Shown in pieces: positions 16,073-33,268 of a stretch of DNA of 64,000 nucleotides. The stretch lies in contig JAQWTI010000034.1 in the NCBI GenBank assembly GCA_029242745.1, positions 24 to 64,023 on the forward strand, read 5' to 3'. Within the stretch, counting starts at the first letter, position 1; every line of letters begins with the position of its first letter. The stretch is from Acidimicrobiales bacterium (GTDB lineage Bacteria; Actinomycetota; Acidimicrobiia; Acidimicrobiales; MedAcidi-G1). Position numbers and translations under genes: made by a program. Under the pieces are notes generated by a model. It did no database searches. It was not told the origin of the DNA and saw only the letters and a program-made list of their open reading frames with translations.

Positions 16073-17092
16073 ATGCATGAGTTTTTACGTCGGATTCCAA
16101 AAGTCAGTCTGCACTGCCACCTAGAGGGATCGATCCAGCCCGAGACGGTTATCGATCTGTCGGTCAAGCATGGCATCGAGTTGCCCGACTACGACGATCC
16201 AGGCGACCTGTATAGCTACTCCGACATCTACGAATTCTTAAAGATGTACGACGTCGCCGCTCATTCAGTTCGGGACCACGACGATTTCCGGCGAGTTACC
16301 TACGAAACCCTCAAGGAGGCGGCCGATCACAGCGTGCGATATCGGGAGATGTTCTGGAGTCCAATGGCGCACATGGAGTCGGACGTCGCATACGGAACTG
16401 CGGTCGACGGCATTATCGAGGGCATGCAGGATGCAGAGGCCGACTTCGGCATTCAGTGCCGCTTAATTGCTGACATCAATCGGATGGATACGGCGGAGCA
16501 TGGGTACGAGATGGTTTCCATCATCGCCGAGAACCCTCGACCGGAGCTGATAGGAATCGGTCTGGATTACGCCGAGGCTGGCAACCCGCCTGAGAAGTTC
16601 GAGGCCGCATTTCAGTTGGCTGGCCAGAACGGGTTGCATCGCACGGCGCACTGCGCCGAGGACGGGCCGGCCGCCAACATCACTACAGCACTCGATCTCC
16701 TCAAGTGCGAGCGCATCGACCACGGCTACCACATCCTCGGTGATGACGCGGTGGTACAGCGCTGCGTGGAGGATGAGGTGGTTTTCACGTGTACGCCTAA
16801 ATCGACAGAGTGGGTGTATTTCGGTAATGGCATGGCTAATCACCCGATCAAAGAGATGGTGAGCCGAGGACTCAAGGTCATGATTGACTGCGACGACCCA
16901 CCGATGTTTAAGACGGACCCGACGAATGACTACATCGAGGCGGCTGACCACATGGGCTTCGATTCAGCAGATTTCAAGCGGTTTGTGCTCAACGGCATCG
17001 ATGGGTGCTGGATTGATGACAGCACACGTCAACAATGGCGACAGTCGTTTGGTGCGGAGATCGACGAACTAGCCACGCAACTAACGGACTAG
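16073..17092 (+). CDS. adenosine/adenine deaminase-family amidohydrolase, paralog 1
   Basis: ATG at 16073 gives MHEFLRRIPKVSLHCHLEGS (HxH metal motif). Also AHCAED (HAGE variant), RIDHGYH, DCDDPPMF. The ORF track opens at 16031. Confidence 0.8.
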   Translation: MHEFLRRIPKVSLHCHLEGSIQPETVIDLSVKHGIELPDYDDPGDLYSYSDIYEFLKMYDVAAHSVRDHDDFRRVTYETLKEAADHSVRYREMFWSPMAHMESDVAYGTAVDGIIEGMQDAEADFGIQCRLIADINRMDTAEHGYEMVSIIAENPRPELIGIGLDYAEAGNPPEKFEAAFQLAGQNGLHRTAHCAEDGPAANITTALDLLKCERIDHGYHILGDDAVVQRCVEDEVVFTCTPKSTEWVYFGNGMANHPIKEMVSRGLKVMIDCDDPPMFKTDPTNDYIEAADHMGFDSADFKRFVLNGIDGCWIDDSTRQQWRQSFGAEIDELATQLTD

Positions 17093-17150
17093 GTTCGGCT
17101 CCACCCTGCTGTTCGGGACGGTCGAGAAGGCGCCAGATTGGCGGCGACTG

Positions 17151-18407
17151 CTAATTGGTGCGCTTTCTCTCAACGAAGGGTAGTGCTCGTGTTGTTGCTC
17201 TGACTTCGCCGACCTCCTCACCCGCTTCTCGCCAAGCAAGCTTGACTTCCGTCCCTGGCTTGGCGGCCCGGGGGGCGATCCGGGCAAGTCCGATGAGGCC
17301 GTTTACGTTCGCGCTCCAGGCGATGCTGCCGACATGACCGACCGGAGTGCCGTCCAGTCTCAGTTCGAGCAGTGGGAACCGCTGGACACGTCCGGGGACT
17401 CGGGGCGGGCGGCCGGATGCCTCTTGAAGCGAGACGATGTCTCGCCAGTTGACCTCGATACCAACGAGCTTTGTCTTCGGGCCGCCGCCTTCGCGTTCAG
17501 CAACGAGGGCGTCGCGCCCGATGAAATCGCCCTTGTCGAAGTCGATGAAACGACCTGCGCCGATCTCGTCGGGAGTCGCCAACCATTGCACGGACTGCGG
17601 GCCGGTGGGGTCGCTGTCTTGCCTAGGGGCGTCCAGTCCCGCCAAGGTGTAGTCGATGACTGGTAGGACGAGACCTGCTTCGATTCGACACACGTCTTCG
17701 GAGGCGTCGCCCAAGTGTTCCAGTCCGTGGGGTTTTCCGGCTTCGACCAGAGCGTCGAACACGGGGAGCGCCCCATCGGAAGGGACCCACACTTCGAAGC
17801 CGCGTTCGCCTCCGAAGCCGACGCGCCACAGCCAGACGTCCACACCGGCCAGTTGCGTCTGAGCCCCGCGACCGAAACGCAGATCACTCCAATCTTGGCC
17901 AGTCGCGGCGGTGACGATATCGAACGCTGCGGGACCCTGCAGGTGGAGATTTCCCCAGTCGGTGGTCTCCTCTTCGATCTCGACATCGAACCCTTCGCGG
18001 TGTGCGGCGAACCAGTTATCCATAGGGCCGGATGTGTAGCAGTAGCGATCATCAGCGACGCGGAAGAGGACGCCGTCGATGATGACGTGACCGTCTTCAT
18101 CGCAGAACACGATGTATTTCGACACACCAACGTCCCAGGCGTCGACGTCTCGGATAATCAGGCGTTGGAGTAATGCAGCGGCGTCAGGTCCAGAGAAGAA
18201 ATACATCGACAACGGTGACTTGTCTTCGAGGACGGCGTGCTGGCGCATTGCGATGACGGCCGCCTCGTGGTTTCCAAACTCAGCCGGTCGCACGTAGACC
18301 TTCACGCCGTTCATCCAGTCGGACCATGTGCTGGATCTGTTCAACTGGGCATGGCGCGGGGTGAACGGCGTGACCGCCAAGGAGAGTTGGGGCTCATCGT
18401 TTGCCAT
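17151..18407 (-). CDS. GcvT-family aminomethyltransferase-like folate-binding protein
   Basis: 418-aa ORF with GcvT/DmdA-like layout (...LEDKSPLSMYFFSGPDA..., GFGGERGFEVW, CRIEAGL, C-terminal barrel). Divergent from the oxygenase operon. Confidence 0.7.
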   Translation of the reverse strand: MANDEPQLSLAVTPFTPRHAQLNRSSTWSDWMNGVKVYVRPAEFGNHEAAVIAMRQHAVLEDKSPLSMYFFSGPDAAALLQRLIIRDVDAWDVGVSKYIVFCDEDGHVIIDGVLFRVADDRYCYTSGPMDNWFAAHREGFDVEIEEETTDWGNLHLQGPAAFDIVTAATGQDWSDLRFGRGAQTQLAGVDVWLWRVGFGGERGFEVWVPSDGALPVFDALVEAGKPHGLEHLGDASEDVCRIEAGLVLPVIDYTLAGLDAPRQDSDPTGPQSVQWLATPDEIGAGRFIDFDKGDFIGRDALVAEREGGGPKTKLVGIEVNWRDIVSLQEASGRPPRVPGRVQRFPLLELRLDGTPVGHVGSIAWSANVNGLIGLARIAPRAAKPGTEVKLAWREAGEEVGEVRATTRALPFVERKRTN

Positions 18408-18945
18408 GGCAACCTTCCCTTCTCGTCTTGATACAGAGCGTGAGTCTAGTTCTGTTGAGCTGACCGAAGTTTAATTGGTGTGTTGACAGGTGAGCGTCGC
18501 GTCCCATCCTTCAGCAGTGCCAACGAGGCGCACGAGAAGATCGGCGGAATACCTCTGCTGTACCTCCACTGATCACAACAAGGTCACCATCCACGCTGCA
18601 CCTTGGACCTGACCGTTCCCGTCACCGAACTCAACAAGGAGGTCATCGCTGTTGTCAAACTAATCAGTAACAGATCAGAACCAAAAGAGGTTCCTCTCGA
18701 TTAACTCTCTGGCCGTTGGTGCTACCAGCGTGTCGCTCGATGGTCCTAGGAGTGCTTGATTTGCAGGGGTGATTTTGGAACAGGGACCTTCGCTCAGCTC
18801 TGAGAGTTGCATGCCAGCCCCGAAGCAGTGCTCTACGAGCCTCACTGCAAACTTCAGGTGGGGTAGTCTTGCAGGGCGGCTTTTGTTGATGCTTAAGTAC
18901 AGGCATGTGCGGAATTTAGGATTCGGGGGCTTGGAGCATCCTGTC

Positions 18946-19860
18946 ATGAACCTTCTAGGAAACCCAGAGGTATGTACGAACGGAGCCATTCTTGACCTTT
19001 GGCATCCGGTGGTTCCTACCAGTGAGATCGAAGTGGGAATAGTGCGGCAGGTGGTGCTGCTTGGGCAAGCAGTCAGTTACTCATTAACAGCGCCAGGGAC
19101 TTACTTTGCCTGGCGAACGGACCCTGCCATTCCCGCAGGAACAGTGTTTATGCCGTCGGTGGTAACTGAAAATCTTCCTGTTCTGCATCGGTATGGGTAT
19201 CTCTGGACAAGTCTTGGAGACCCAAGCGAAAGTCTCTTTGAAATTCCTGAATATGACGAACCAGATAGAAGAAATATCCACGCGGCGACGATTGGTGTCT
19301 ACTGCTCGGCGCCTCGGGCAGTAGAGAACTTTTTGGACTTGGGCCATTTTCCATACGTCCACACTGGGGTTCTAGGCATTGAGCCTCATACGGAAGTCGT
19401 CGAATACGACGTGCATGTAGATCCCGAGAACAATGAGCTCTGGGCTACTAACTGCCGCTTCTTTCAACCAATGGCGGCAGCCACCTCCACAACGGGCAAG
19501 ACGGTCGGGTACGAATTCCGGGTACCCCACCCTTACTGTTGTCTTCTCTACAAGACATCGCCTCTTGACAGCTCGCGTGTGGACGCAATTGGACTGTTTG
19601 TTCGATCGGTTGCTCCTGACTACATTGAGGCGAACATGTTTCTGAGCCTGCTTGATGAATCGAGTAGTGATTCGTTTATCCGCCAGTTCCAGCAATTAAT
19701 TTTTGCTCAGGACAAGCCCATCCTCGAAAATCAGAACCCAAAACTGCTACCGCTCGACCCTCGGGCCGAGACGCCTGTCCGGTCCGACAAGTTGGCAATC
19801 GCATATCGACGGTGGCTTTCTGACCTAGGCGTCACTTATGGCGTGCTTCCAAAGACTTGA
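18946..19860 (+). CDS. Rieske-less non-heme-iron oxygenase component (VanA/NdmC-like catalytic domain)
   Basis: ATG at 18946 with GGAG 9 nt upstream; the ORF track opens at 18769. Mononuclear iron motif ENFLDLGHFPYVH is present. The N-terminal WHPVV...RYGYLWTSLGDP frame of a Rieske domain is retained, but no CxH...CxxH ligands. Confidence 0.75.
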   Translation: MNLLGNPEVCTNGAILDLWHPVVPTSEIEVGIVRQVVLLGQAVSYSLTAPGTYFAWRTDPAIPAGTVFMPSVVTENLPVLHRYGYLWTSLGDPSESLFEIPEYDEPDRRNIHAATIGVYCSAPRAVENFLDLGHFPYVHTGVLGIEPHTEVVEYDVHVDPENNELWATNCRFFQPMAAATSTTGKTVGYEFRVPHPYCCLLYKTSPLDSSRVDAIGLFVRSVAPDYIEANMFLSLLDESSSDSFIRQFQQLIFAQDKPILENQNPKLLPLDPRAETPVRSDKLAIAYRRWLSDLGVTYGVLPKT

Positions 19861-19864
19861 GCCG

Positions 19865-21625
19865 ATGAGTAAAAGTTTGACGAATCTCTGGCATCCGATC
19901 GCGAGCGCTGAGGACCTGCCGTATCGCCACATCTTCCAGGGCCAGTTGCTTGGTCGTGAGCTTGCCGTGTGGCGAGCCGATGACGATTTTGTCAACATCT
20001 GGGAGAATCGCTGTCTGCATCGCGGTGTGCGACTCTCGATCGGGAGGAACGAGGGGCTTGAGCTTAAGTGTCAGTATCACGGCTGGCGCTACGCCAATCG
20101 ATCGGCTGGCTGTACCTACATTCCTGCTCATCCAGCGGACGCACCGGCTCGTACCATCTGCAACCGAACATTCCCGGTCTGTGAACGTTACGGACTGATC
20201 TGGTCGGGGGAGGACCCAACGGGAGATCCTCCTGAGATTTCACTCTTAGAGAAAGGTCGAACGCTCCCGTTGCGGAGCATCGCGGTCAACGCATCGCTGA
20301 ATCTCGTCCTGGAACACCTAGCCAACTATCGCTTTTCCCTCAACGGTGATCCTGGAAACCTTGCCGTGACCACTGCGGACTATCTGGACCAGTGTTCTCT
20401 TTCGGTAACTGCGACTTGCGATAGCAAACAATCGACAGTCCTCTTCTTCGTTCAGCCGGTTGACTCAAATCGATCCGTGATTCGAGGCGTCCTTTGCAGC
20501 AGCCCAACGGATTCTGAGCGGCTCCTGACGCTGCGACATCACAGCACGGAATTGTCTCACCTCCGCGAGAAAGTCGAACTCGACGCCCTTAAGGCCCCGC
20601 TGATTCAGCCAATGACGCCCACTATCGAACAGGTTCCTATCACCAGTTACGAAATAATGATGCCTTCTTCTGGTCGTAAGGCATCACTCCGCGTGCAAGT
20701 GCTTCGCAAATGGGTGACCGCCGAAGGGATTGTGGGTCTGGAACTCGAATCGATCGGCAAACCTCTACCAACTCCCCAGCCTGGCGCCCATATCGACGTG
20801 CACCTGCCCAATGGGTTGGTGCGGCAGTATTCGCTGACAAATGCACCAGGGCAGGGATCGCTATATCGGCTGGGGGTCAAACTTGAATCAGATTCACGTG
20901 GTGGTTCTTCCTGCCTCCACGAAACGGTCAAAGAAGGAGACGTCTTAGCCATTTCTGAGCCGCGGAACAACTTTTCGCTACGCCGCGACGCCGTGAAGAC
21001 GCTCTTGGTGGCTGGTGGGATCGGAGTGACGCCCCTGTTGTCAATGGCTCACACGCTAAGAAACAACAAATTAGACTACGAACTGCATTACTTCGCACAG
21101 ACCGATGGGCATCTCGCCTTTCCTGAGGTACTGCAGGAGTTTGGTGATGCAGTAGTGCTCCATCTCGGCCTATCGCCAGAGGCAACGAGCAAGGAACTGA
21201 CTGCGTTGCTTTTGGGATACAAGTCAGCAATGCACGTCTATGTATGTGGACCTGGACCCATGCTCGAGGCCGCTCGCCGTATTGCTTCTGAGGAGGGTTG
21301 GCCTGATACGGCCGTGCACTTTGAGTATTTCAGGAACACCATCGAGATTGACAGTTCATCTTCGTTCGAAGTCAGTTTGGCCAGATCAGCCCTCACACTT
21401 GAGATTCCGAGCGGCAAGACTATTCTCGAGATTCTTCGCGCAAACGGCATAACACTGATGTCGTCCTGTGAGCAAGGTGCATGTGGCACGTGCGAAGTAC
21501 CGGTGGTCGAAGGTGACCCAGAACATCAAGATGTCTACCTCAACGACTCAGAGAAGGCGGCAGGTCAGAGAATCATGACTTGTGTCTCTCGTGCGAAGTC
21601 GCCCCGTCTGGTTCTAGACATCTAG
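19865..21625 (+). CDS. Rieske [2Fe-2S] + FNR-like flavin/NAD(P)H + plant-type [2Fe-2S] ferredoxin fusion reductase (NdmD-like)
   Basis: Starts 4 nt after the previous stop. Rieske CLHRG...CQYHGW. FNR-like RQYSLTN, LLVAGGIGVTP, YVCGP. C-terminal CEQGACGTC...C ferredoxin motif. Confidence 0.8.
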   Translation: MSKSLTNLWHPIASAEDLPYRHIFQGQLLGRELAVWRADDDFVNIWENRCLHRGVRLSIGRNEGLELKCQYHGWRYANRSAGCTYIPAHPADAPARTICNRTFPVCERYGLIWSGEDPTGDPPEISLLEKGRTLPLRSIAVNASLNLVLEHLANYRFSLNGDPGNLAVTTADYLDQCSLSVTATCDSKQSTVLFFVQPVDSNRSVIRGVLCSSPTDSERLLTLRHHSTELSHLREKVELDALKAPLIQPMTPTIEQVPITSYEIMMPSSGRKASLRVQVLRKWVTAEGIVGLELESIGKPLPTPQPGAHIDVHLPNGLVRQYSLTNAPGQGSLYRLGVKLESDSRGGSSCLHETVKEGDVLAISEPRNNFSLRRDAVKTLLVAGGIGVTPLLSMAHTLRNNKLDYELHYFAQTDGHLAFPEVLQEFGDAVVLHLGLSPEATSKELTALLLGYKSAMHVYVCGPGPMLEAARRIASEEGWPDTAVHFEYFRNTIEIDSSSSFEVSLARSALTLEIPSGKTILEILRANGITLMSSCEQGACGTCEVPVVEGDPEHQDVYLNDSEKAAGQRIMTCVSRAKSPRLVLDI

Positions 21626-21634
21626 GGCGTGGTG

Positions 21635-22294
21635 ATGATCAAACTCTTCGATTACATCCTTTCAGTGAACTGCTATAAGCAGAGATTGATAATGAGCATC
21701 CTGGACGTGCCCTTTGAGTCGATACCCGTCGACTTCTACCCGGGATTGGAACACAAGGGTGAGGAGTTCAAGAAGATCAATCCACTTGGGCATATACCGG
21801 TCATCGACGACGACGGCTTCATGCTGCGAGATGCCCACGCAATCCTCGTATATCTCGCGTCAAAGTACGACCCAACCGGCCTTTGGTACCCAGTTAACTC
21901 CCCAGAGCTCGTTGGCGAAACTACCCAGTGGATGCTTTTTGCTGAAGGAACCACCAACACGGCTTCTGCGGCTCGTCTGCACGTGAACCTCGGTTACGAA
22001 TTCGACATTGATTCGTGTCGAGAGGGAGCCCACCGTCTGTTTCGCGTACTCGACGAGCATCTTTGGTTCAGAGAGCAAGAAAACCGGGACTGGGTGTGTT
22101 CAGGCGAACACCCCACCATCGCTGATATCGCGATATTCCCTGATGTAATCCTCTCCGAGGAAGGGGGTATTGCCCGTATCGATTACCCAGCGATTCGAAG
22201 GTGGACCGATCGGGTGAAACGACTTCCCGGGTTCCTGCCTATGCCGGGAATCTTCCCAACAGCTGATGCTCGGCCGCTATCTCACGAAGTTTGA
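21635..22294 (+). CDS. glutathione S-transferase-like protein (NdmE-like position)
   Basis: Thioredoxin-like N-domain (INPLGHIPVIDDDGFMLRDAHAILVYLA) plus a helical C-domain. Starts 9 nt after the reductase stop. Confidence 0.75.
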   Translation: MIKLFDYILSVNCYKQRLIMSILDVPFESIPVDFYPGLEHKGEEFKKINPLGHIPVIDDDGFMLRDAHAILVYLASKYDPTGLWYPVNSPELVGETTQWMLFAEGTTNTASAARLHVNLGYEFDIDSCREGAHRLFRVLDEHLWFREQENRDWVCSGEHPTIADIAIFPDVILSEEGGIARIDYPAIRRWTDRVKRLPGFLPMPGIFPTADARPLSHEV

Positions 22295-22554
22295 CCGGTC
22301 GCCCGCAGGAAGGAATTCCTTTCCCGTTCGGTCGTTTGAAAGGCAGGCGGCGGGCTTCGCTGATGCGAGTTGGCGGTTATTCCTAAACTCTTTCTACAAA
22401 CGCAAAGCAGGTGAGTCAGATACCAGAGGGCGGCTCAACCTCTCTGCTAGTGGAGAGTTGTTATCGTTCCCGTATCGCTTCAGAGTTATTTTGCTCTGAC
22501 CTTGCGTACTGACTTGCAGCGAGTTGTTGCAGAAAAGACTGGGGGGTAGACAAG

Positions 22555-23586: not shown

Positions 23587-23691
23587 CCCTCTGGAGATGG
23601 CTTACAGTGCGACAAAGCCTCAACCTGCGAGCCGAGTTCCGTGGGAAGCCAACTGCGACCAGCATTGCCTGTCTAATCTAGGAGGGTCTCG

Positions 23692-25961: not shown

Positions 25962-26044
25962 GGTCGGAAGTAATATGTGCAATAGGGATTTAAGTAGTTG
26001 ACAAACTAGAGATACGACCGATAACGGGGAATGGGGCTTACTAA

Positions 26045-27214: not shown

Positions 27215-28746
27215 TCGAACCGGATCATTCGTATGCCGTCGAGGCGCGGGGCATTTCCAAGTATTTCGGAGGTGTCGCCGCCCTCGACGGTGTCGACTTT
27301 AAAGTTCATTGGGGCGAGGTCCATGCTCTCCTAGGTGAGAACGGTGCTGGAAAGACCACACTTTCCAACATTCTTGCTGGCATATATCGGGCGGACTCAG
27401 GTGAGATTGCCGTTGATGGACTCACCCATGAGGTTCGCACGCCTGCCCAGGCGATCGAAGCTGGAATTGGAATGGTTCACCAGCATTTCAAGCTCGTCGA
27501 AACTATGACAGTGGCCGAGAACGTCCACCTCGGTTGGCCTGATACCCCAACCTTGGTCAGCCAGCGGGTGTTGGTAGACCGGACTAACCATTTGATGGAA
27601 GAAATCGGACTTCATGTCGACCCGACTGCGAAGGTCTGGCAATTGTCGGTTGGAGAACAACAGCGAGTTGAGATCCTTAGAGTGTTAGCGCGAGGAGCCC
27701 AAATACTCATCCTCGACGAACCCACGGCGGTCCTGACTTCCCACGAAGCCAGAGACTTGTTCAAGGTCATGCGCGACCTCGTTTCGGGCGGCCGGACAGT
27801 CATCTTCATAAGTCACAAACTGAATGAAGTGCTCGAAGTTTCCGATCAGATCACAGTTCTCCGCGACGGGGTTCATGAGGTCACACGTTCGGCTGAAGGA
27901 GCGACACCGCGAGAGCTGGCACGGTTGATGACTGGTGAGGAAAGAACTCTTGAGGTTGAACATCGAGAGATTACGGGAGAAACTGTTCTGCAGCTCGAGG
28001 GTGTAACGGCGAGCAATGACCGCGGCGTTGTTGCTCTCAGCAGCGTTGATCTAGTAGCGCGGTCAGGTGAAATTCTTGGAATAGCCGGGGTGTCTGGCAA
28101 CGGCCAGACTGAACTTGCTGAGGTCATCTCAGCTATGCGCAGAGTGGACGGCGGGACAATCACTGTTGATGGCGAAGATGTTGCCAATGGCCTGGTCCGG
28201 AAGGTCACCGACCTTGGAGTTGGTCATATACCAGAGGATCGCATCGGTGTTGGCATAGTTGGGTCAGCCTCCGTTAAGGACAACGCTGTTCTCAGGCACT
28301 ACTGGACTGAGGGGTTATCGAGTGGCGTCACGCTGTTTCGCCAGGCAGTTGTCGACTTTGCGACCCGCTTGGTCGAAGTTGCTCGCGTGCAAACCCGATC
28401 AATTACTGCCACTGCCGGTCAGATGTCAGGGGGGAATCAGCAGCGTCTCGTAGCCCGACGTGAGGCCCTATTAGCGACCCGAGTGCTGATAGCCGTTCAC
28501 CCCACGCGTGGTCTAGACGTGCTTGCTGCTCAAGAGGTGCAAACCGCCGTAATCGGACAGCGCGATAGAGGTGCAGCTGTTCTCTTCATCTCGGACGATC
28601 TCGATGAAGTTCTCCTGATGAGTGACCGGATTGCAGTGATGTACGAAGGGCGCATCATGGGGATCTTCGATCGGGTAGATGCAGATCGTGAGGCGATTGG
28701 TTTGATGATGGGCGGCCACACGCTCGAAGAAGCGATGGCTAAATGA
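27211..28746 (+). CDS. ABC transporter ATP-binding protein, duplicated-domain (ribose/nucleoside type)
   Basis: GTGA overlap with the SBP stop. Walker A GENGAGKTT and degenerate GVSGNGQTE. Signatures LSVGEQQR and MSGGNQQR. Confidence 0.9.
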   Translation: MIEPDHSYAVEARGISKYFGGVAALDGVDFKVHWGEVHALLGENGAGKTTLSNILAGIYRADSGEIAVDGLTHEVRTPAQAIEAGIGMVHQHFKLVETMTVAENVHLGWPDTPTLVSQRVLVDRTNHLMEEIGLHVDPTAKVWQLSVGEQQRVEILRVLARGAQILILDEPTAVLTSHEARDLFKVMRDLVSGGRTVIFISHKLNEVLEVSDQITVLRDGVHEVTRSAEGATPRELARLMTGEERTLEVEHREITGETVLQLEGVTASNDRGVVALSSVDLVARSGEILGIAGVSGNGQTELAEVISAMRRVDGGTITVDGEDVANGLVRKVTDLGVGHIPEDRIGVGIVGSASVKDNAVLRHYWTEGLSSGVTLFRQAVVDFATRLVEVARVQTRSITATAGQMSGGNQQRLVARREALLATRVLIAVHPTRGLDVLAAQEVQTAVIGQRDRGAAVLFISDDLDEVLLMSDRIAVMYEGRIMGIFDRVDADREAIGLMMGGHTLEEAMAK

Positions 28747-29825
28747 GCACCTATCGTTTGGAGCGCCGACTCGAAGTCGACACGAAGAAGCAAGCACTCA
28801 CAAGAGTTGCTGGCGCGTTAATTGCCATGGCCGTAGCCGGGCTCGTTCTGTTGCTGACAGGTCGAAACTCGTTCAAAATTCTTTTTGATGGACTCGAAGC
28901 GATCTTCGGCAGTCAACGAGGCCTAGAAGGTGTAGCGCTCCGGGCCATTCCGATTCTCATGACAGCACTCGCCGTTGCGTTGTCGCTTCGCATGAAGATA
29001 TGGAATATTGGTTCGGGTGGTCAGTTTCTTATGGGTGCGTTCGCGGCACTTGGAGTCGGCATCCATGTGAACGGCCCGGGCTGGCTTGTCTTGATCTTGA
29101 TGGCACTTGCAGCGCTAGTCGCTGGTTCTCTATGGATTTTAGTTCCAGCGCTTGCCCGCGCCTATTGGGACGTCAATGAGATCATCACAACCTTGCTGCT
29201 CAACTTCGTCGCGGCACAGTTGGTGACCTGGGCTTCAATTGGATTTTGGCGTGATACTGAGGCAGCTGTTATTCAGTCCACCAAACGGGTGCCCTACAGG
29301 CTTGCTGAGTTGCCAGGCACCGACTCGTTGACTATTGCTCTATTGGTGCCGTTCGTCATCGCTTTAGTGCTGTTCTGGATATTTCGTTCGACGACTATTG
29401 GTTTTGAGATCGACACCATAGGAGGCAACGCGCGGGCTGCGGCCTTTGCCGGGATAAACGTTCGCCGCCGGATACTGCTGGTGATGCTCTGTACCGGAGC
29501 GATAGCGGGCCTTGGTGGAATGTTGCAACTTAGTGCCCCGGGGGCACGGCAACTCGGTCCAGGATACGAAGCGCAGTTTGGACTAACCGGCTTCATCGTT
29601 GCGGCCCTTGCCGGAGGGGCAATGATGGGCGTGTTAGTTGGTGGAACCTTCATTGCCTCGATGTTCTTTGCTGGCTTGGTGCTTCAGACCAAAGGCCTAT
29701 CCGTCTACATCATCTTTGGCATATATGGCCTAATTCTCACCGGGGTCGCGTTAGGCGAAATGGCTGCTAGATATCGACTGGTTCGGGTAGGGGATGCGGT
29801 TAGTAGCGAAAGAGTTGCATCATGA
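28743..29825 (+). CDS. ABC transporter permease (BPD_transp_2 type)
   Basis: ATGA overlap. Multi-TM protein typical of ribose/nucleoside-type permeases. Confidence 0.8.
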   Translation: MSTYRLERRLEVDTKKQALTRVAGALIAMAVAGLVLLLTGRNSFKILFDGLEAIFGSQRGLEGVALRAIPILMTALAVALSLRMKIWNIGSGGQFLMGAFAALGVGIHVNGPGWLVLILMALAALVAGSLWILVPALARAYWDVNEIITTLLLNFVAAQLVTWASIGFWRDTEAAVIQSTKRVPYRLAELPGTDSLTIALLVPFVIALVLFWIFRSTTIGFEIDTIGGNARAAAFAGINVRRRILLVMLCTGAIAGLGGMLQLSAPGARQLGPGYEAQFGLTGFIVAALAGGAMMGVLVGGTFIASMFFAGLVLQTKGLSVYIIFGIYGLILTGVALGEMAARYRLVRVGDAVSSERVAS

Positions 29826-30805
29826 CCTTTGCTCTCATCGAGAACGGCTTCCTCAGTCTCATCAGCTCCGCTATTCCTGCAAGCACCGTGGTTGTGCTTG
29901 CAGCTCTTGGTTGCCTAGTCGGAGAACGGGTGGGGGTCCTAAATTTGGGGCAAGAAGGCCTTATAGGCATAGGAGGGGTCTACGCGGTGATAGCCGTTGT
30001 GACTTGGGGTGTGGGTAGCCCTTGGGTCGCACTTGCCATAGGCATGGCAGCGGCAGGTATTGCTGGCCTGATGTTCGCTGTTGCCGTTGTGGTATTTAGA
30101 GCCAGCCAAGTGTTGGTTGGTCTGGCTCTGGCGCTAGGCGGGATCGGGTTGTCAAATCAGTTGGGAACCAACCGAAATGGCGTTCAGGTGAGAACGCAGT
30201 TCAGCGAGTTCAGTCTTGGCGGCAGCCTCGTCGATGGAGGTGTTCGTGAAGCCCTCTTCGCACATGACCCGATGGTCTACGTCGCGTATGTGTTACTCCC
30301 GCTTACTCTTTGGTTCATCCTGTTCCGCACCCGGCACGGGATGAATATGCGGGCAGTAGGTGAGAATCCAGCTGCAGCAGATGCTGTCGGTGTCAGCGTG
30401 ACCTGGTCCCGTATCGGCTACAGCGTTCTGGGTGCTGCGATTTCCGGAGCTGGAGGCGCATATATGGTGCTCTCATTCACGCCTACCTGGTCACCTGATA
30501 TAGCACGAGGTCGAGGCTGGGTTGCTCTCGCAGTCGTGATCTTCGCTGGTTGGCGGCCGGTCCGGGCTGTATTCGGAGCACTGCTCTACGGCACGATGTT
30601 CTCCTTAGGACTCACAGCACAGGCACGAGGTTGGGGCTTTCTGTTCAATGCTACGGACCTCGCTTTCTTCCTCTCGATGTTGCCATTTCTTGTGACCCTG
30701 GCGGCCATTCTCCTGCCTGCTGGTGCAGCCAAGATAGGGAAAAGGGTTCGTTCCACTGCCGCACCTGCGGCACTTGCCATCCCCTACTCCCGTGAGGAAC
30801 GGTAG
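29822..30805 (+). CDS. ABC transporter permease (BPD_transp_2 type)
   Basis: ATGA overlap. Multi-TM. Paralogous to the preceding permease. Confidence 0.8.
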   Translation: MTFALIENGFLSLISSAIPASTVVVLAALGCLVGERVGVLNLGQEGLIGIGGVYAVIAVVTWGVGSPWVALAIGMAAAGIAGLMFAVAVVVFRASQVLVGLALALGGIGLSNQLGTNRNGVQVRTQFSEFSLGGSLVDGGVREALFAHDPMVYVAYVLLPLTLWFILFRTRHGMNMRAVGENPAAADAVGVSVTWSRIGYSVLGAAISGAGGAYMVLSFTPTWSPDIARGRGWVALAVVIFAGWRPVRAVFGALLYGTMFSLGLTAQARGWGFLFNATDLAFFLSMLPFLVTLAAILLPAGAAKIGKRVRSTAAPAALAIPYSREER

Positions 30806-30823
30806 GGCAAAGAGGTCATTGCT

Positions 30824-31816
30824 GTGGGCAACATCCGTGATGAGTGGTTCCCCATTGCTAGTTCTGCCGACTTGCAGCCAGGAACGTGTTCAGCGTTGAC
30901 GTTGCTCGAAAATCGGTTGCTTCTGGGTGTCGGGAAAGATGGTCAACCATCACTGTTTCCTGACACGTGCCCTCACCGTGGGGCTCAACTGAGTCTCGGC
31001 TCATTTGACGGTGCGAAGTTCCAATGCCCCTACCATGGTTGGGAGTTCGGGCTCGATGGACGGTGCCTGCACCAGCCGGCCCATCCTGGCCGTGACCCAT
31101 CGGCGGCCTCAACTCTGCCGTCTTATTTGCTCCGTGAGGGATACGGATTGCTGTGGGCATGTTTAGGCGATAACCCAAAGTGTCTGCCAACGTACCCGGA
31201 ATACGAGGACGGCACTGGTCGAAGCCTTGTGCTGAAGGCAGCCCCGTTCGCTAGCTCAGGCCCGCGAATTATTGAGAACTTCCTTGACCTCGCACACTTT
31301 CCGTTTGTGCACGAGGGATACCTTGGTGATCCGCGAATCGCCGGCATCGACAGATACGTCGTTGAAGTCGTAGACGGAATGCTACGCCTCAGTGAGGTGT
31401 CGGTTTGGCAGCCAAATCCAGGGCCATTGGCGACCAGTGGGGGACCAGTGTCCTACGAGTACACCGTCTCACATCCTTATGCGGCAACCCTTGCGAAGAC
31501 CCCGAGCGAGGTTGATGGTGGGGAGCGCAGTGGCTTTTCAATTCTTTTGGTCGCTAGTCCCGTCAACGAGACCGAATGTTTAGTTTGGCGCGTCGTAACA
31601 GTTCGTGATCCTGGAGTAGACACCGATGCGCAGCGTGCCTTCAATCGCACAATCTTTGAGCAAGACATCAACGTGGTGGAATCGCAGCTTCCTAAGAGGT
31701 TGCCACTGGACTTACGTGCCGAAGTGCACCAACCAGCCGACGCTGGAAGCCTTGCCTACCGTAAGTGGCTCATCGATCGCGGAACGTCGTATGGGACGGT
31801 ACCCAAGACTGAATAG
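30824..31816 (+). CDS. Rieske non-heme-iron oxygenase, alpha-only VanA/NdmA/NdmB-like (complete)
   Basis: GTG start. Rieske CPHRG...CPYHGW and iron motif ENFLDLAHFPFVH. The C-terminal AYRKWLIDRGTSYGTVPKT tail is shared with ORF 18946..19860. Confidence 0.85.
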   Translation: MGNIRDEWFPIASSADLQPGTCSALTLLENRLLLGVGKDGQPSLFPDTCPHRGAQLSLGSFDGAKFQCPYHGWEFGLDGRCLHQPAHPGRDPSAASTLPSYLLREGYGLLWACLGDNPKCLPTYPEYEDGTGRSLVLKAAPFASSGPRIIENFLDLAHFPFVHEGYLGDPRIAGIDRYVVEVVDGMLRLSEVSVWQPNPGPLATSGGPVSYEYTVSHPYAATLAKTPSEVDGGERSGFSILLVASPVNETECLVWRVVTVRDPGVDTDAQRAFNRTIFEQDINVVESQLPKRLPLDLRAEVHQPADAGSLAYRKWLIDRGTSYGTVPKTE

Positions 31817-31926
31817 TTGCGAGGCAACTGGCTCATAGGGTTGCCACGGTTCGGCTGACACACTTGGCCCCTCCTGGCGTAGAAACTGCGTATCGGTCGC
31901 ACCACACCGAACCGTAGGATGGCGCC

Positions 31927-32217
31927 GTGGCCCACACTGTCTTCGTAGAGTTTAGATGTCAGCCAGGAAAGAGGGAAAAGCTCCTCTCGTCGCTCCTGCC
32001 TGCGTTGGATGAAACGAGAGCCTTCGCTGGCTGTCGTTCAATCGATACTTATGTTGATTGCAACGACCCTGACTTGGTGTTGCTTTGGGAGCATTGAGAT
32101 GCGGCTCACGATCATGCCGCCTACATGGCATGGCGGACTGAGGAAGGGCTGCTCGATCGACTCGGTCCGTTGTTCCGTGGAGATGCACGGGTCGTTCACA
32201 TGAATAAAGCTCTGTAG
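31927..32217 (+). pseudogene. ABM (antibiotic-biosynthesis-monooxygenase-like) domain gene interrupted by one in-frame TGA at 32095..32097
   Basis: My own translation from the GTG at 31927: VAHTVFVEFRCQPGKREKLLSSLLPALDETRAFAGCRSIDTYVDCNDPDLVLLWEH*DAAHDHAAYMAWRTEEGLLDRLGPLFRGDARVVHMNKAL*. The 96 codons match ABM-domain length and pattern. Both halves fall below the 60-aa ORF-track cutoff. Confidence 0.6.
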
Positions 32218-32229
32218 GGGAAAGTTCGA

Positions 32230-33213
32230 ATGATTTCAGTTCCGACAGTTGACATCGGTCCCGCTTTGGCCGGGGAGCCCGGCGCAGTAGCCAGAGCGGC
32301 TGCCGCCCTTGACGCTGCGTGCACGACCAGCGGCTTCTTCGTACTCACCGGTCATGGGGTCCCGTCGGAACTGGTCGAAGAGGTGATGGCTCAAGGAAGA
32401 AAATTTTTCTGTTTGCCTTTCGAGGAAAAGCAGCGAGTGGCTCCACCGGGGCCTGAACACTACCGGGGCTATCTCGGTATGGACACGACCTCGCTTGCCG
32501 CGACCCTCGGCAATGAGGCGCCTCCCGACCTGTGCGAGTCGTTCAACATCAATCGTTTCGACGACCCTGCAGTTCGAAGTCGGGCATACGTTGAGGGGGC
32601 AGAGGCCGCCGTGCACCCCAACTTGTGGCCAGAGAACCCGGCGGAGTTGCGACCTGTGCTGGAGCGTTACTACGCAGAAATGGAGCAACTGTGCGTAGGG
32701 TTGCTGCCGATTTTCGCAGGAGCGCTCGACCTCCCCTCAACGTGGTTCGACGACAAGGTGGCAGAGCACACTGCGTTGCTGCTGCTGAACTGGTATCCGC
32801 CAGTCAGTGGTGCGGCCCGGCCAGCACAGCTCCGGCGTGGCGCACACACCGACTATGGCGCATTCACGATTGTGGCTGCTGAGCAGATCCCAGGGCTGCA
32901 GATTCTCCTTGACGACAACTGGGTGGATGTACCGGCAGTGCCGGGTGGGTTCGTCGTGAACCTCGGCGATCTTATGGCGCGTTGGACCAACGATCGTTGG
33001 GTTTCCACCCTTCACCGGGTGGTGATCCCTGACGGGGCTGATCAGGAACGGGATCGCATGTCGGTGCCGTACTTCTTTCAGCCCTCCTACGGTGCGCTCA
33101 TAGAGACAATCCCGACCACGGTGACGACTAGCCGTCCCTCGAGGTACGAACCGGTGATTTCAGGCAAGTGGATTACCGCCAAATCCATGTCGATGCTTGA
33201 AGACCAAGAATGA
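32230..33213 (+). CDS. 2-oxoglutarate/Fe(II)-dependent oxygenase (isopenicillin-N-synthase-like family)
   Basis: HTDYGAFTIV (HxD), STLHRV (distal His), RMSVPYFFQP (RxS). Confidence 0.85.
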   Translation: MISVPTVDIGPALAGEPGAVARAAAALDAACTTSGFFVLTGHGVPSELVEEVMAQGRKFFCLPFEEKQRVAPPGPEHYRGYLGMDTTSLAATLGNEAPPDLCESFNINRFDDPAVRSRAYVEGAEAAVHPNLWPENPAELRPVLERYYAEMEQLCVGLLPIFAGALDLPSTWFDDKVAEHTALLLLNWYPPVSGAARPAQLRRGAHTDYGAFTIVAAEQIPGLQILLDDNWVDVPAVPGGFVVNLGDLMARWTNDRWVSTLHRVVIPDGADQERDRMSVPYFFQPSYGALIETIPTTVTTSRPSRYEPVISGKWITAKSMSMLEDQE

Positions 33214-33268
33214 GCGTCAACTTCCGACTTGTAAAGAAGTCTTGGCTCCTGCGTGTTCCGTGTTGCTG

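What the first reader, a model, noticed from the sequence alone, without database searches (positions are those of the whole stretch)
16073..33213. Composite island: deaminase paralogs + Ndm-like demethylases + BMP-type nucleoside importer + GcvT-like + 2OG oxygenase, a putative methylated-purine or modified-nucleoside catabolic locus
About 17 kb of contiguous functional theme contains:
- four ADA-family genes
- an NdmCDE-like triad plus a complete Rieske paralog (30824..31816)
- a Tat-lipoprotein BMP-family binding protein with its ATPase and two permeases (26045..30805); this type typically imports purine nucleosides
- a divergently transcribed GcvT-family folate enzyme, a possible sink for the formaldehyde or methyl units released
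- an ABM-domain remnant and an IPNS-like 2OG oxygenase

A molybdenum hydroxylase large subunit lies 11 kb further on (44191).

I know of no described pathway that combines these parts. A reasonable hypothesis is uptake and stepwise N-demethylation or deamination of methylated purines or nucleosides, for example RNA/DNA turnover products or methylxanthine-like metabolites, as a C/N source.
Basis: inference. Interest (0 to 1): 0.7.

Follow-up and report, generated by a model that had tools for sequence, protein, structure and literature searches.

The report
Methylpurine uptake-and-demethylation gene island
This stretch of an uncultured marine-type actinobacterium (Acidimicrobiaceae) most likely imports N-methylated purine bases and strips off their amino and methyl groups, an undescribed relative of the bacterial caffeine-degradation pathway that could explain how microbes recycle modified nucleobases.

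Summary
There are four catalytically intact ADA-family deaminases. There is an NdmC/NdmD/NdmE-like triad: an oxygenase without a Rieske cluster, a reductase carrying an extra Rieske domain, and a GST-like protein. There is also a Tat-lipoprotein BMP binding protein with its ABC transporter, a complete Rieske oxygenase, a divergent GcvT-like folate protein, an ABM gene and a 2OG oxygenase.

The combination is not chance. A 99.4%-identical contig has the same gene order. Relatives whose proteins are 60-97% identical keep the same parts in different orders. Across 79 genome loci, the triad occurs in 64, and in 53 of those it sits with a BMP-type ABC system.

Three unrelated aminopurine deaminase families recur beside the triad: ADA, Ade-type and guanine deaminase. 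Formaldehyde-detoxifying FrmA/FrmB recur beside it in Alphaproteobacteria.

The binding protein and the deaminases resemble binders and deaminases of purine bases, not nucleosides. The molybdenum hydroxylase at 44191 is not linked to the locus.

Best reading: uptake of methylated aminopurine bases, hydrolytic deamination, Ndm-type oxidative N-demethylation, and folate capture of formaldehyde. The substrate is unproven. I found no paper describing this pathway. I rate it a new variant of a known kind.

The parts
16031..17092 (+). ADA1, an ADA-family (cog1816-type) deaminase. An alternative ATG start lies at 16073. Its membership of the island is the least certain.
   Evidence: Pfam A_deaminase 5.6e-71, and TIGR01430 above cutoff. 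The catalytic residues are intact, and it is 54% identical to ADA4. No relative contig covers this side, so linkage could not be tested.
17151..18407 (-). GcvT-family folate-binding protein. Proposed role: trapping formaldehyde or methylene as 5,10-CH2-THF, or a THF-dependent demethylase.
   Evidence: Pfam GCV_T plus GCV_T_C. It is below all NCBIfam equivalog cutoffs. The nearest structures are the THF domain of TMAO demethylase, and LigM. A 93% ortholog lies in L080, and 35-44% homologues lie in 5 other Acidimicrobiia loci.
18408..18945 (.). 538-bp divergent intergenic region between the GcvT-like and NdmC-like genes; a presumed control region.
   Evidence: Read from the sequence. There is no Rfam match, and no regulator gene in the island.
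18946..19860 (+). NdmC-like catalytic oxygenase subunit that lacks the Rieske cluster.
   Evidence: VanA_C domain only. The CxH...CxxH loops are deleted relative to the paralogue. The Fe ligands H134, H139 and D256 are invariant. It is 56-58% identical to the Sinorhizobium and Mesorhizobium proteins that the literature calls ndmC homologues.
19838..21625 (+). NdmD-like reductase: N-terminal Rieske domain, FMN/NAD(H) domain and plant-type 2Fe-2S domain. It overlaps the NdmC-like gene by 23 nt.
   Evidence: Pfam Rieske, NAD_binding_1/DmmA-like_N and Fer2. Rieske ligands are present. The C-terminal domain is about 45% identical to NdmD chain 6ICM_D.
21629..22294 (+). NdmE-like GST-fold protein, presumed to be a structural subunit.
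   Evidence: GST_N and GST_C Pfam hits. It lies immediately after the NdmD-like gene in 64 of 79 loci, with 60-86% identity.
22300..31905 (.). 9.6-kb variable cassette (ADA2-4, ABC importer, Rieske oxygenase). It is absent at this position in the closest genome relative.
   Evidence: In L001 (91% nt identity), window 18962-22272 is followed after 254 bp by window 31908-33231.
22555..23586 (+). ADA2, an ADA-family deaminase paralogue with lineage-specific insertions.
   Evidence: A 73% ortholog lies in L098.
23692..24720 (+). ADA3, an ADA-family deaminase paralogue.
   Evidence: The nearest structures are 4GXW, 3OU8/3PAN and 3RYS. A 74% ortholog lies in L098, and it is 49% identical to the ADA next to NdmCDE in Ensifer.
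24936..25961 (+). ADA4, an ADA-family deaminase paralogue, always found directly upstream of the binding-protein gene. The longest ORF starts at 24819.
   Evidence: Orthologs at 76-96% lie immediately upstream of the SBP in 7 of the 8 metagenome contigs that carry a close relative of this SBP (L080, L092-L095, L097, L098). The start is taken from the gene call in L090.
26045..27214 (+). Tat-exported lipoprotein; a BMP-family substrate-binding protein of the purine-base-binding subgroup.
   Evidence: Pfam Bmp. SRRDALR motif and LLAAC lipobox. E about 1e-45 to 3S99 (adenine modelled) and to AtzT (binds guanine and adenine). The aromatic sandwich is kept, and the polar contacts are changed.
27211..28746 (+). 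ABC transporter ATPase with a double ABC domain.
   Evidence: Pfam ABC_tran x2. 4-nt overlap with the SBP gene. 97% identical in L080.
28743..29825 (+). ABC permease 1.
   Evidence: BPD_transp_2.
29822..30805 (+). ABC permease 2.
   Evidence: BPD_transp_2.
30824..31816 (+). Complete Rieske/VanA_C oxygenase (NdmA/B-SxtT clade), 19 nt after the permease gene.
   Evidence: Pfam Rieske plus VanA_C. PDB matches: SxtDIOX/SxtT 2e-48, NdmA 3e-34, NdmB 5e-27. Orthologs at 79% (L080) and 60% (L098).
31927..32217 (+). ABM-domain gene interrupted by a single nonsense codon (TGA at 32095-32097).
   Evidence: It is intact (96 aa, PF03992) in L090.
32230..33213 (+). Fe(II)/2OG oxygenase (DIOX_N plus 2OG-FeII_Oxy). 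Its role is unassigned; it may carry out a further oxidative demethylation or hydroxylation.
   Evidence: The nearest structures are an ethylene-forming-enzyme-like protein and the nucleobase enzyme thymine dioxygenase. It is 93% identical and directly follows NdmCDE-ABM in L001, and is also present in L004, L062 and L078.

Best explanation
The locus is a catabolic or salvage island for N-methylated (alkylated) aminopurine bases. The steps below are inferred from homology and context; none is shown biochemically.

1. A Tat-exported lipoprotein of the purine-base-binding BMP subgroup, with its ABC transporter, imports the base or bases.
2. Three or four anciently diverged ADA-family hydrolases remove the C6 amino or alkylamino group. 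Each probably acts on a different methyl isomer. The products are methyl-hypoxanthines or methyl-xanthines plus ammonia or methylamine.
3. The NdmC-like oxygenase lacks its own Rieske cluster. It is served by the Rieske domain fused to the NdmD-like reductase and scaffolded by the GST-like NdmE homologue. The complete Rieske paralogue probably draws electrons from the same reductase. Both oxidatively remove ring N-methyl groups as formaldehyde.
4. The GcvT-like protein traps that formaldehyde on tetrahydrofolate. In the proteobacterial versions of the locus, glutathione-dependent FrmA/FrmB do this job instead.
5. The 2OG oxygenase and the ABM protein carry out accessory oxidations that cannot yet be assigned.

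The end products would be hypoxanthine or xanthine for salvage or for use as a nitrogen source. The order of steps 2 and 3 is unknown.
For: Anatomy of the locus:
- All domains and catalytic residues are present.
- The transporter genes and the Rieske oxygenase gene are tightly packed, with 4-nt overlaps and a 19-nt gap.

Conservation:
- The same gene order occurs at 99.4% nt identity, with 49 synonymous versus 20 non-synonymous differences, which indicates purifying selection.
- L080/L093 carry the same components in another order: NdmC 76%, NdmD 80%, NdmE 88%, ADA4 76%, SBP 90%, Rieske 79%, GcvT 93%. They also carry Ade-type and guanine-deaminase-like genes.
- L098 keeps ADA2, ADA3, ADA4, the SBP-ABC system, the Rieske oxygenase and an inverted NdmCDE.
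- Across 79 genome loci, the triad is present in 64 and is accompanied by a BMP-type ABC ATPase in 53.
- A minimal module, GntR-BMP-ABC divergent from NdmCDE, lies on Sinorhizobium megaplasmids. In Pseudomonas the module sits beside a Tsx channel.

Purine link:
- The SBP's only close solved relatives bind guanine or adenine.
- The ADA paralogues are nearest the structures 4GXW, 3OU8/3PAN and 3RYS. PA0148 encodes an adenine deaminase; that 3OU8/3PAN are its structures is from memory.
- Three non-homologous aminopurine deaminase families occur in 14 of the 79 loci.
- An XdhAB-like pair lies next to the module in L096.

Demethylation link:
- S-(hydroxymethyl)glutathione dehydrogenase and S-formylglutathione hydrolase, both above their equivalog cutoffs, recur in the alphaproteobacterial loci, as frmA/frmB do beside ndmABCDE in strain CBB5.
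- The GcvT-like gene recurs mainly in Acidimicrobiia loci.

Precedents in the literature:
- The cog1816 enzyme Patl2390 hydrolyses N6-methyladenine and N6,N6-dimethyladenine but not adenine or adenosine (PMC13296781).
- N2,N2-dimethylguanine hydrolases exist in the guanine deaminase family (PMC13054789).
- Marine invertebrates make methylated adenines, guanines and isoguanines (PMC5793054).
Against: - No substrate is shown for any protein here.
- The oxygenases are as close to, or closer to, the saxitoxin hydroxylases SxtT/SxtDIOX than to NdmA/B in the PDB. Hydroxylation rather than demethylation therefore cannot be excluded from sequence.
The NdmD Fer2 domain (about 45% identity) is no closer to NdmD than to generic phthalate-dioxygenase-type reductases.
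- Most triad loci (65 of 79) have no deaminase within 10 kb. The aminopurine step is an accessory feature of a minority of loci.
- The closest genome relative, L001, lacks the ADA and transporter cassette at this site.
- The island contains no regulator, riboswitch or xanthine dehydrogenase.
- ADA1 linkage is untested.
Confidence: 0.6

Rival explanations
1. Genuine methylxanthine (caffeine, theobromine, 7-methylxanthine) degradation, as in Pseudomonas putida CBB5. The deaminases would be bystanders.
For: The triad has the unique NdmCDE architecture, and there is an additional complete Rieske oxygenase of the NdmA/B clade. FrmA/FrmB lie beside homologous loci, as in CBB5.
Against: Methylxanthines carry no amino group, yet the ADA paralogues are individually conserved and physically interleaved with the transporter and oxygenase genes across rearranged loci. 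There is only one complete Rieske paralogue, whereas the caffeine pathway needs two (NdmA and NdmB). The carriers are Acidimicrobiia MAGs and rhizobial megaplasmids, not the caffeine-degrading pseudomonads in which the pathway was defined. The review states that the function of the rhizobial homologues is unknown.
Confidence: 0.1
2. Catabolism of modified nucleosides such as m6A, m1A or m7G ribosides, with import and deamination at the nucleoside level.
For: The BMP family includes nucleoside binders, and ADA-family enzymes include adenosine deaminases. All four ADA genes pass the TIGR01430 'adenosine deaminase' model. A Tsx nucleoside channel lies beside the Pseudomonas module.
Against: The SBP matches the purine-base binders at about 1e-45, and the nucleoside-binding BMPs (BmpD, TpN38) only at about 1e-3. 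The ADA paralogues are closest to 4GXW, 3OU8/3PAN and 3RYS, and mammalian adenosine deaminases score far lower. No nucleoside hydrolase or phosphorylase lies in the window or among the recurrent neighbours. Known Ndm enzymes act on free bases.
Confidence: 0.1
3. The oxygenases hydroxylate the imported heterocycle, in the manner of SxtT or GxtA, rather than N-demethylating it. The substrate would be some other nitrogen-rich heterocycle, such as N6-alkyladenines or cytokinins, s-triazines, pterins or guanidinium alkaloids.
For: SxtT and SxtDIOX are the best PDB matches for both oxygenases. AtzT-type SBPs also bind ammeline and hydroxyatrazine. A cog1816 member is a cytokinin deaminase.
Against: Formaldehyde-detoxification genes recur next to the triad, and a GcvT-type C1 acceptor recurs in the actinobacterial loci. 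Adenine-type and guanine-type deaminases, and an XDH-like pair, point to purines. No triazine hydrolase set is present.
Confidence: 0.12
4. The genes are a fortuitous juxtaposition of unrelated genes in a flexible genomic region, with no shared pathway.
For: The region is mosaic. There is a 9.6-kb indel relative to L001. L080 contains gene fragments and rearrangements. Identity is unequal between modules, with transporter proteins at 96-97% against NdmC at 76%. One gene carries a nonsense codon.
Against: The same families reassemble in different orders in independent lineages. The triad and transporter are coupled in 53 of 79 genome loci. Selection is purifying.
Confidence: 0.04

Closest known systems
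NdmABCDE caffeine N-demethylation system of Pseudomonas putida CBB5 (NdmCDE = 7-methylxanthine N7-demethylase)
   Same: The hallmark split architecture is the same: a catalytic subunit without a Rieske cluster, a reductase carrying the extra Rieske domain, and a GST-like third subunit, in the order C-D-E. There is also an additional complete Rieske oxygenase of the NdmA/B clade. Formaldehyde-handling genes are associated with the homologous loci.
   Different: The locus is coupled to a purine-base ABC importer and to multiple aminopurine deaminases, neither of which is part of the caffeine cluster as described in the review. It has a GcvT-like folate protein in place of FrmA/FrmB, and adds a 2OG oxygenase and an ABM protein. 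The host is an Acidimicrobiaceae actinobacterium. Neither the substrate nor the identity to CBB5 NdmC is determined.
ndmCDE homologues of unknown function in Sinorhizobium and Mesorhizobium (Summers et al. 2013, as cited in PMC4408171)
   Same: The window's proteins are 56-58% (NdmC), about 60% (NdmD) and about 65% (NdmE) identical to them, with the same gene order and the same adjacency to a BMP-type ABC system.
   Different: The rhizobial module is minimal (GntR, SBP-ABC and the triad) and mostly lacks the ADA paralogues, GcvT and the 2OG oxygenase. Some of these loci carry guanine deaminase, an Ade-type deaminase or FrmA/FrmB instead.
Purine-base-binding BMP proteins AtzT (PDB 6PI5) and Brucella 3S99
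   Same: About 31% identity over the full length, E about 1e-45. The Tat signal is present, as in AtzT. The aromatic sandwich is retained (Tyr45->Trp, Trp194->Phe).
   Different: The hydrogen-bonding residues are changed: Glu165->Thr, Asn218->Val, Asn220->Asp. Position 218 is hydrophobic in all three NdmCDE-linked SBPs examined. This suggests, but does not show, a different and possibly methylated purine ligand.
cog1816 base-specific deaminases: adenine deaminase PA0148 and cytokinin / N6-methyladenine deaminase Patl2390
   Same: The ADA fold and the full catalytic set are present, and the nearest solved structures are 4GXW, 3OU8/3PAN and 3RYS, not the mammalian adenosine deaminases. My reading of that group as the adenine-deaminase branch rests partly on memory.
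   Different: The window carries four paralogues that are 41-54% identical to each other, and three of them have their own conserved orthologues. Specificity is unknown, and identity to Patl2390 was not measured.
THF-binding (GcvT-like) domains of TMAO demethylase, dimethylglycine oxidase and sarcosine oxidase; LigM and DmdA
   Same: GCV_T plus GCV_T_C domains; these enzymes are the best structural-sequence matches.
   Different: The protein is a stand-alone 418-aa protein and is below every equivalog cutoff. Whether it traps formaldehyde or is itself a demethylase is unknown.

Membership tests
NdmCDE-type split Rieske N-demethylase | The catalytic oxygenase subunit has the non-haem-iron domain but no Rieske [2Fe-2S] ligands. 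| tested here: met
   VanA_C domain only. The CxH...CxxH loops are deleted relative to the paralogue. H134, H139 and D256 are invariant.
NdmCDE-type split Rieske N-demethylase | The reductase carries an extra N-terminal Rieske domain in addition to its flavin/NAD and plant-type 2Fe-2S domains. | tested here: met
   Pfam Rieske, NAD_binding_1/DmmA-like_N and Fer2 in one 595-aa protein. C59xH61...C78xxH81 are present.
NdmCDE-type split Rieske N-demethylase | A GST-like third subunit is encoded directly downstream, in the gene order C-D-E. | tested here: met
   GST_N and GST_C protein at 21629-22294. The order is conserved in 64 of 79 loci.
NdmCDE-type split Rieske N-demethylase | Sequence orthology to P. 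putida CBB5 NdmC, NdmD and NdmE. | tested here: inconclusive
   The CBB5 NdmC and NdmE sequences were not obtainable. The NdmD Fer2 domain (6ICM_D) is about 45% identical, which is no better than generic reductases. There is indirect support: 56-58% identity to the rhizobial proteins that the literature calls ndmCDE homologues.
NdmCDE-type split Rieske N-demethylase | Catalyses N7-demethylation of 7-methylxanthine with release of formaldehyde. | not testable with these tools
   Only contextual support is available: FrmA/FrmB in alphaproteobacterial loci and a GcvT-like gene in actinobacterial loci.
Purine-base-binding BMP substrate-binding proteins (AtzT / 3S99 type) | Full-length similarity to AtzT and 3S99, and retention of the aromatic sandwich around the base. 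| tested here: met
   E = 1.4e-45 and 4.1e-45. The equivalents of Tyr45 and Trp194 are Trp and Phe.
Purine-base-binding BMP substrate-binding proteins (AtzT / 3S99 type) | The polar residues that hydrogen-bond guanine or adenine (Glu165, Asn218, Asn220). | tested here: not met
   These positions are Thr, Val and Asp in the window protein. The ligand is probably not plain guanine.
ADA-family (cog1816) metal-dependent purine deaminases | The HxH, His, Glu, His and Asp-Asp metal-binding and catalytic residues. | tested here: met
   All are present in ADA1-4. All four score above the TIGR01430 cutoff.
ADA-family (cog1816) metal-dependent purine deaminases | Specificity for adenosine, as in the housekeeping Add enzyme. 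| tested here: inconclusive
   The nearest structures are 4GXW, 3OU8/3PAN and 3RYS, and mammalian ADA scores about 1e-29. PA0148 is an adenine deaminase; that 3OU8/3PAN are its structures is from memory. The paralogues read HLEG or HLMG where adenosine deaminases have HLDG (this motif rule is from memory, not tested). All are below every PRK09358 equivalog cutoff.
Glycine-cleavage T protein (GcvT proper) | Scores above the GcvT equivalog cutoffs. | tested here: not met
   91-136 bits against cutoffs of 236-459. The protein is a member of the superfamily only.
Xanthine dehydrogenase (for the Mo hydroxylase at 44191) | An XDH-type large subunit with adjacent FAD and FeS subunits, linked to the island. 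| tested here: not met
   The best NCBIfam matches are the glyceraldehyde-DH and CODH types, all below cutoff. There are no partner subunits, and unrelated genes lie in between.

The most novel reading that the evidence does not exclude
The NdmCDE-like triad together with a purine-base BMP importer may be the core of a widespread, so far unrecognised bacterial route for scavenging N-methylated purine bases. It occurs in Acidimicrobiia, on rhizobial megaplasmids and in some Pseudomonas. Candidate substrates are RNA/DNA turnover and alkylation products such as 7-methylguanine and 1-, 3-, 7- or N6-methyladenine, and invertebrate methyl-isoguanine or methyl-guanine alkaloids. Lineage-specific deaminases from three unrelated families would feed the core, and lineage-specific formaldehyde sinks (folate or thiol based) would serve it. 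On this reading, the caffeine pathway of Pseudomonas and parts of the atrazine pathway (AtzT, AtzB) would be recent offshoots of this older methylpurine metabolism.
Probability: 0.35. Interest if true: 0.8.

Novelty: new variant of a known kind. Interest (0 to 1): 0.62.

Why it matters
Modified purines are released continuously from RNA and DNA turnover and from DNA repair, and marine invertebrates make them as alkaloids. [quoted passage not shown]

NdmCDE homologues in rhizobia have been an acknowledged unknown since 2013. This locus and its relatives give a concrete, testable assignment for them:

- a defined binding protein to screen against ligands;
- three or four deaminase paralogues that may resolve different methyl isomers;
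- two oxygenases whose formaldehyde release can be assayed;
- cultured carriers of the minimal module (Sinorhizobium meliloti 1021 pSymA, Pseudomonas sp. Cab53) for genetics.

If confirmed, it would add a nitrogen-rich substrate class to marine and soil dissolved-organic-matter cycling. It would also indicate where the caffeine and atrazine catabolic enzymes came from, and provide regiospecific N-demethylases and deaminases for biocatalysis.

Tried and rejected
- Riboswitch or other RNA clue to the ligand: an Rfam scan of 15-36 kb found nothing meaningful. Promoter and terminator scans were at background level.
- Direct comparison with CBB5 NdmC and NdmE: the original paper is not held and no sequences were retrievable. 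Only the NdmD Fer2 fragment in the PDB could be compared, and it was not diagnostic.
- Literature searches for a described pathway found nothing relevant. The searches covered 7-methylguanine with 7-methylxanthine, methylated purines with Rieske and adenine deaminase, modified-nucleobase catabolism, and ndmC with marine. Guessing S. meliloti pSymA locus tags gave no inducer data.
- Exact-sequence look-ups for NdmE, GcvT and ADA1 found no contigs, so linkage on the ADA1/GcvT side could not be checked in the same population.
- Mo hydroxylase at 44191 as part of the pathway: rejected. An XdhAB-like pair does, however, sit next to the module in L096.
- ADH at 33269-34288 as a formaldehyde dehydrogenase: rejected. 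It resembles threonine or sugar-alcohol dehydrogenases and is far below the formaldehyde-dehydrogenase cutoffs.
- Several recurrent 'neighbour' clusters without any Pfam hit were set aside as probable antisense ORF artefacts of high-GC DNA.

Full report
**1. What is in the sequence**

- ADA-family deaminases lie at 16031/16073-17092 (ADA1), 22555-23586 (ADA2), 23692-24720 (ADA3) and 24819/24936-25961 (ADA4).
- A GcvT-family gene lies on the minus strand at 17151-18407, divergent from the next gene across a 538-bp spacer.
- An oxygenase with only a VanA_C catalytic domain follows. Its real start is the ATG at 18946 and it ends at 19860, because all homologues are about 300 aa.
- A 595-aa reductase (19838-21625) has an N-terminal Rieske domain (C59xH61...C78xxH81), an FNR-like domain and a plant-type ferredoxin domain.
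- A GST-fold protein lies at 21629-22294.
- A BMP-family binding protein (26045-27214) has a twin-arginine motif (SRRDALR) and a lipobox (LLAAC). It is followed by an ATPase and two permeases with 4-nt overlaps.
- A complete Rieske/VanA_C oxygenase starts 19 nt later (30824-31816).
- An ABM gene lies at 31927-32217, and an Fe(II)/2OG oxygenase at 32230-33213.

Alignment of the two oxygenases shows that the first has lost about 36 residues carrying both cluster-binding loops, but keeps the mononuclear-iron ligands H134, H139 and D256.

The four ADA proteins are 41-54% identical to each other, and all retain the HxH, His, Glu, His and Asp-Asp catalytic set.

The ABM 'remnant' is a full-length gene with one TGG->TGA change. 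It is intact in a 99.4%-identical contig.

**2. Surroundings**

The flanks hold generic catabolic genes: acyl-CoA dehydrogenases, a CoA transferase, an oligopeptide ABC system, a luciferase-like oxygenase and an acyl-CoA ligase.

The Mo-hydroxylase large subunit at 44191-46467 has no FAD or FeS partner genes. It is below cutoff for every NCBIfam model, with its best matches the glyceraldehyde-DH and CODH types. Unrelated genes separate it from the island. I do not count it as part of the locus.

The ADH at 33269-34288 is not a formaldehyde dehydrogenase.

No Rfam element and no regulator gene lie in the island.

**3. Origin**

The closest genome records are uncultured Acidimicrobiaceae and Acidimicrobiales MAGs. 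L001 has 93% identity for the NdmC-like protein.

**4. Is the combination real?**

The answer is yes, from three kinds of comparison.

(a) Close relatives.
- L090 is 99.4% identical over 15.6 kb and has the same order from the NdmC-like gene to the EamA gene. It differs by 49 synonymous and 20 non-synonymous substitutions, which indicates purifying selection.

(b) Moderately diverged relatives keep the parts but shuffle them.
- L080/L093: Ade-like, ADA, ADA4 (76%), SBP (90%), ATPase (97%), permeases (96-97%), NdmC (76%), NdmD (80%), NdmE (88%), guanine-deaminase-like, Rieske (79%), then GcvT (93%) on the opposite strand.
- L098: ADA2 (73%), ADA4 (85%), SBP (75%), ABC, Rieske (60%), ADA3 (74%), then NdmE/D/C inverted.
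- L096: an XdhAB-like pair, an amidohydrolase, SBP-ABC, NdmCDE and an ADA.
- In 7 of the 8 metagenome contigs that carry a close relative of this SBP, an ADA4 orthologue lies immediately upstream of the SBP gene (L096 is the exception).
- ADA2, ADA3 and ADA4 each have their own orthologues. They are therefore old, separately maintained paralogues.

(c) Distant relatives.
- Among 79 genome loci found with the NdmC-like protein, the C-D-E triad is present in 64, and a BMP-type ABC ATPase accompanies it in 53.
- On Sinorhizobium megaplasmids, including S. meliloti 1021 pSymA, the module is minimal: GntR, SBP and ABC, divergent from NdmC-D-E.
- In Pseudomonas sp. Cab53 it sits with a Tsx channel, an AraC regulator and a further Rieske oxygenase with its reductase.

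**5. Unbiased neighbour analysis**

I clustered all ORFs of 87 loci and annotated the recurrent clusters. The counts below are the number of the 79 genome loci that carry each family.

| Recurrent neighbour | Genome loci |
|---|---|
| GntR/FCD regulators | 21 |
| S-(hydroxymethyl)glutathione dehydrogenase (TIGR02818, above cutoff) | 8 |
| S-formylglutathione hydrolase (TIGR02821, above cutoff) | 8 |
| ADA-family genes | 7 |
| Ade-type adenine-deaminase-like proteins (below the TIGR01178 cutoff) | 6 |
| Guanine deaminase (TIGR02967, above cutoff in L026) | 4 |
| GcvT-like | 6 |
| 2OG oxygenase | 4 |

- Three non-homologous aminopurine deaminase families therefore recur beside the same oxygenase and transporter core, in 14 of 79 loci in all. 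That is far above what one or two such genes per genome would give by chance; this estimate is my own inference.
- FrmA and FrmB occur only in alphaproteobacterial loci. The GcvT-like gene occurs almost only in Acidimicrobiia loci. This looks like two alternative sinks for the same product, formaldehyde.
- frmA and frmB also flank ndmABCDE in P. putida CBB5 (PMC4408171).
- No nucleoside hydrolase or phosphorylase recurs.

**6. Clues to the substrate class**

- Binding protein. Its only close solved relatives are Brucella 3S99, in which adenine is modelled, and AtzT, which co-purifies with guanine (KD 0.11 uM) and binds adenine at 2.5 uM. Both match at E about 1e-45. Nucleoside-binding BMPs score only about 1e-3.
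- Binding pocket. The aromatic sandwich is kept, but the guanine-contacting Glu165, Asn218 and Asn220 are Thr, Val and Asp. Position 218 is hydrophobic in the window, Sinorhizobium and Pseudomonas SBPs alike. This is compatible with, but does not prove, a methylated ligand.
- ADA paralogues. They are nearest 4GXW, 3OU8/3PAN and 3RYS, and mammalian adenosine deaminases score much lower. PA0148 is an adenine deaminase. My recollection that 3OU8/3PAN are PA0148 and that 3RYS holds adenine is from memory.
- Precedents. Patl2390 (cog1816) hydrolyses N6-methyladenine and N6,N6-dimethyladenine but not adenine or adenosine. Guanine-deaminase-family N2,N2-dimethylguanine hydrolases were reported in 2026.
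- Oxygenases. They fall in the clade that holds NdmA/NdmB and the saxitoxin hydroxylases SxtT/SxtDIOX.
- 2OG oxygenase. Its second-best structural relative is thymine dioxygenase, a nucleobase methyl oxidase.
- GcvT-like protein. It is nearest the THF domain of TMAO demethylase, which handles formaldehyde, and the THF-dependent demethylase LigM.

**7. Most likely mechanism** (confidence about 0.6; the steps are inferred)

1. N-methylated aminopurine bases are imported.
2. The ADA paralogues remove the C6 amino or alkylamino group hydrolytically.
3. The split NdmCDE-like enzyme and the complete Rieske paralogue carry out NADH-dependent oxidative N-demethylation. The paralogue probably shares the NdmD-like reductase, as NdmA and NdmB do in CBB5.
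4. The GcvT-like protein captures formaldehyde on tetrahydrofolate.
5. The product is hypoxanthine or xanthine.

Plausible substrates are methyladenines and 7-methylguanine from nucleic-acid turnover, or the methylated adenines, guanines and isoguanines made by marine invertebrates. C6 deamination of 1,3-, 3,7- or 1,3,7-methylisoguanines would give exactly the methylxanthines that Ndm enzymes demethylate; this is my inference.

**8. Rivals**

The rivals are true methylxanthine degradation, nucleoside-level catabolism, hydroxylation of another nitrogen heterocycle, and chance juxtaposition. They are weighed in the Rival explanations section. None fits the conserved interleaving of deaminases, base-type importer and oxygenases as well. 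The Sxt-like hydroxylase possibility cannot be excluded from sequence.

**9. Mosaic structure**

- In L001 (91% nt identity), the NdmCDE block is followed after 254 bp by the ABM and 2OG genes. Window positions of about 22.3-31.9 kb (ADA2-4, importer, Rieske oxygenase) therefore form a 9.6-kb indel cassette.
- The transporter proteins are 96-97% identical to those of L080, whereas NdmC is only 76% identical.
- L080 carries Rieske and ADA gene fragments.
- The island is evidently assembled and reshuffled from modules.

**10. Comparison with what is known, and novelty**

The triad meets every architectural criterion of NdmCDE. It is 56-58% identical to the rhizobial homologues whose function the literature calls unknown. 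Orthology to CBB5 NdmC and activity on 7-methylxanthine were not testable here.

I found no paper that describes the coupling to a purine-base importer, to multiple deaminases and to a folate C1 sink.

I rate it a new variant of a known kind, with interest of about 0.6. It turns two open questions into direct experiments, using cultured carriers of the minimal module: what the widespread ndmCDE homologues do, and how microbes dispose of modified purine bases.

Noticed in passing
window 32095-32097 (within the ABM gene, 31927-32217): A single TGG->TGA nonsense change truncates the ABM protein at residue 57. The gene is intact in the 99.4%-identical contig L090 and in L001. This is a strain-specific pseudogene or a sequencing error.
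   Followed up: yes
window ~22300-31905 versus L001 3731-3985: A 9.6-kb block (ADA2-4, BMP-ABC importer, Rieske oxygenase) is present here but replaced by 254 bp in the closest genome relative, which is 91% identical at the nucleotide level on both sides. I did not search for repeats or a mobility gene at the junctions (ORFs and the downstream junction alignment only).
   Followed up: partly
L080 (JGI 3300006166) 1861-2387, 9513-9689 and 13162-13329: The related island contains short fragments of Rieske oxygenase and ADA genes between the intact genes. This suggests repeated duplication, rearrangement and decay.
   Followed up: partly
window 26045-30805 versus L080 4633-9381: The transporter proteins are 90-97% identical between the two islands, while the NdmC and ADA4 orthologues are only 76% identical. 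This suggests either stronger constraint or recent exchange of the importer module.
   Followed up: no
L084/L085 (Pseudomonas sp. Cab53) and L088/L089 (Sinorhizobium meliloti pSymA/pB): The Pseudomonas NdmC-like protein is 84% identical to the Sinorhizobium megaplasmid protein, which implies horizontal transfer between classes. NdmC-like genes are found on 212 plasmids in PLSDB, mostly from Rhizobium and Sinorhizobium, and about half of those plasmids are conjugative.
   Followed up: partly
window 44191-46467: A lone molybdenum-hydroxylase large subunit (CODH / glyceraldehyde-DH-like, below all cutoffs) has no adjacent FAD or FeS subunit genes. It is flanked by an EamA transporter gene and a DUF1989 gene.
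   Followed up: partly
window 24819-24935: The longest ADA4 ORF starts at a TTG and adds 39 N-terminal residues that have no counterpart in the orthologues. The gene call in L090 starts at the position equivalent to window 24936. ADA4 also reads HLMG where the other paralogues read HLEG, next to the metal-binding HxH.
   Followed up: partly
window 18000-26000: G+C content is about 53-54% across the NdmCDE/ADA part of the island, against 57-60% in the flanks at 14-18 kb and 30-34 kb.
   Followed up: no
L096 3102-6925: In one metagenome relative, an XdhA/XdhB-like pair (FAD plus 2Fe-2S subunit, then Mo subunit) lies just upstream of the SBP-ABC-NdmCDE-ADA module. That would link the module to urate formation there.
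   Followed up: no
window 2002-9679 and 10463-15752: Upstream of the island lie a complete oligopeptide-type ABC system (SBP_bac_5, two permeases, two ATPases) and a cluster of acyl-CoA dehydrogenases, a family III CoA-transferase, an amidohydrolase_2 and an SDR. They appear unrelated to the purine theme.
   Followed up: no
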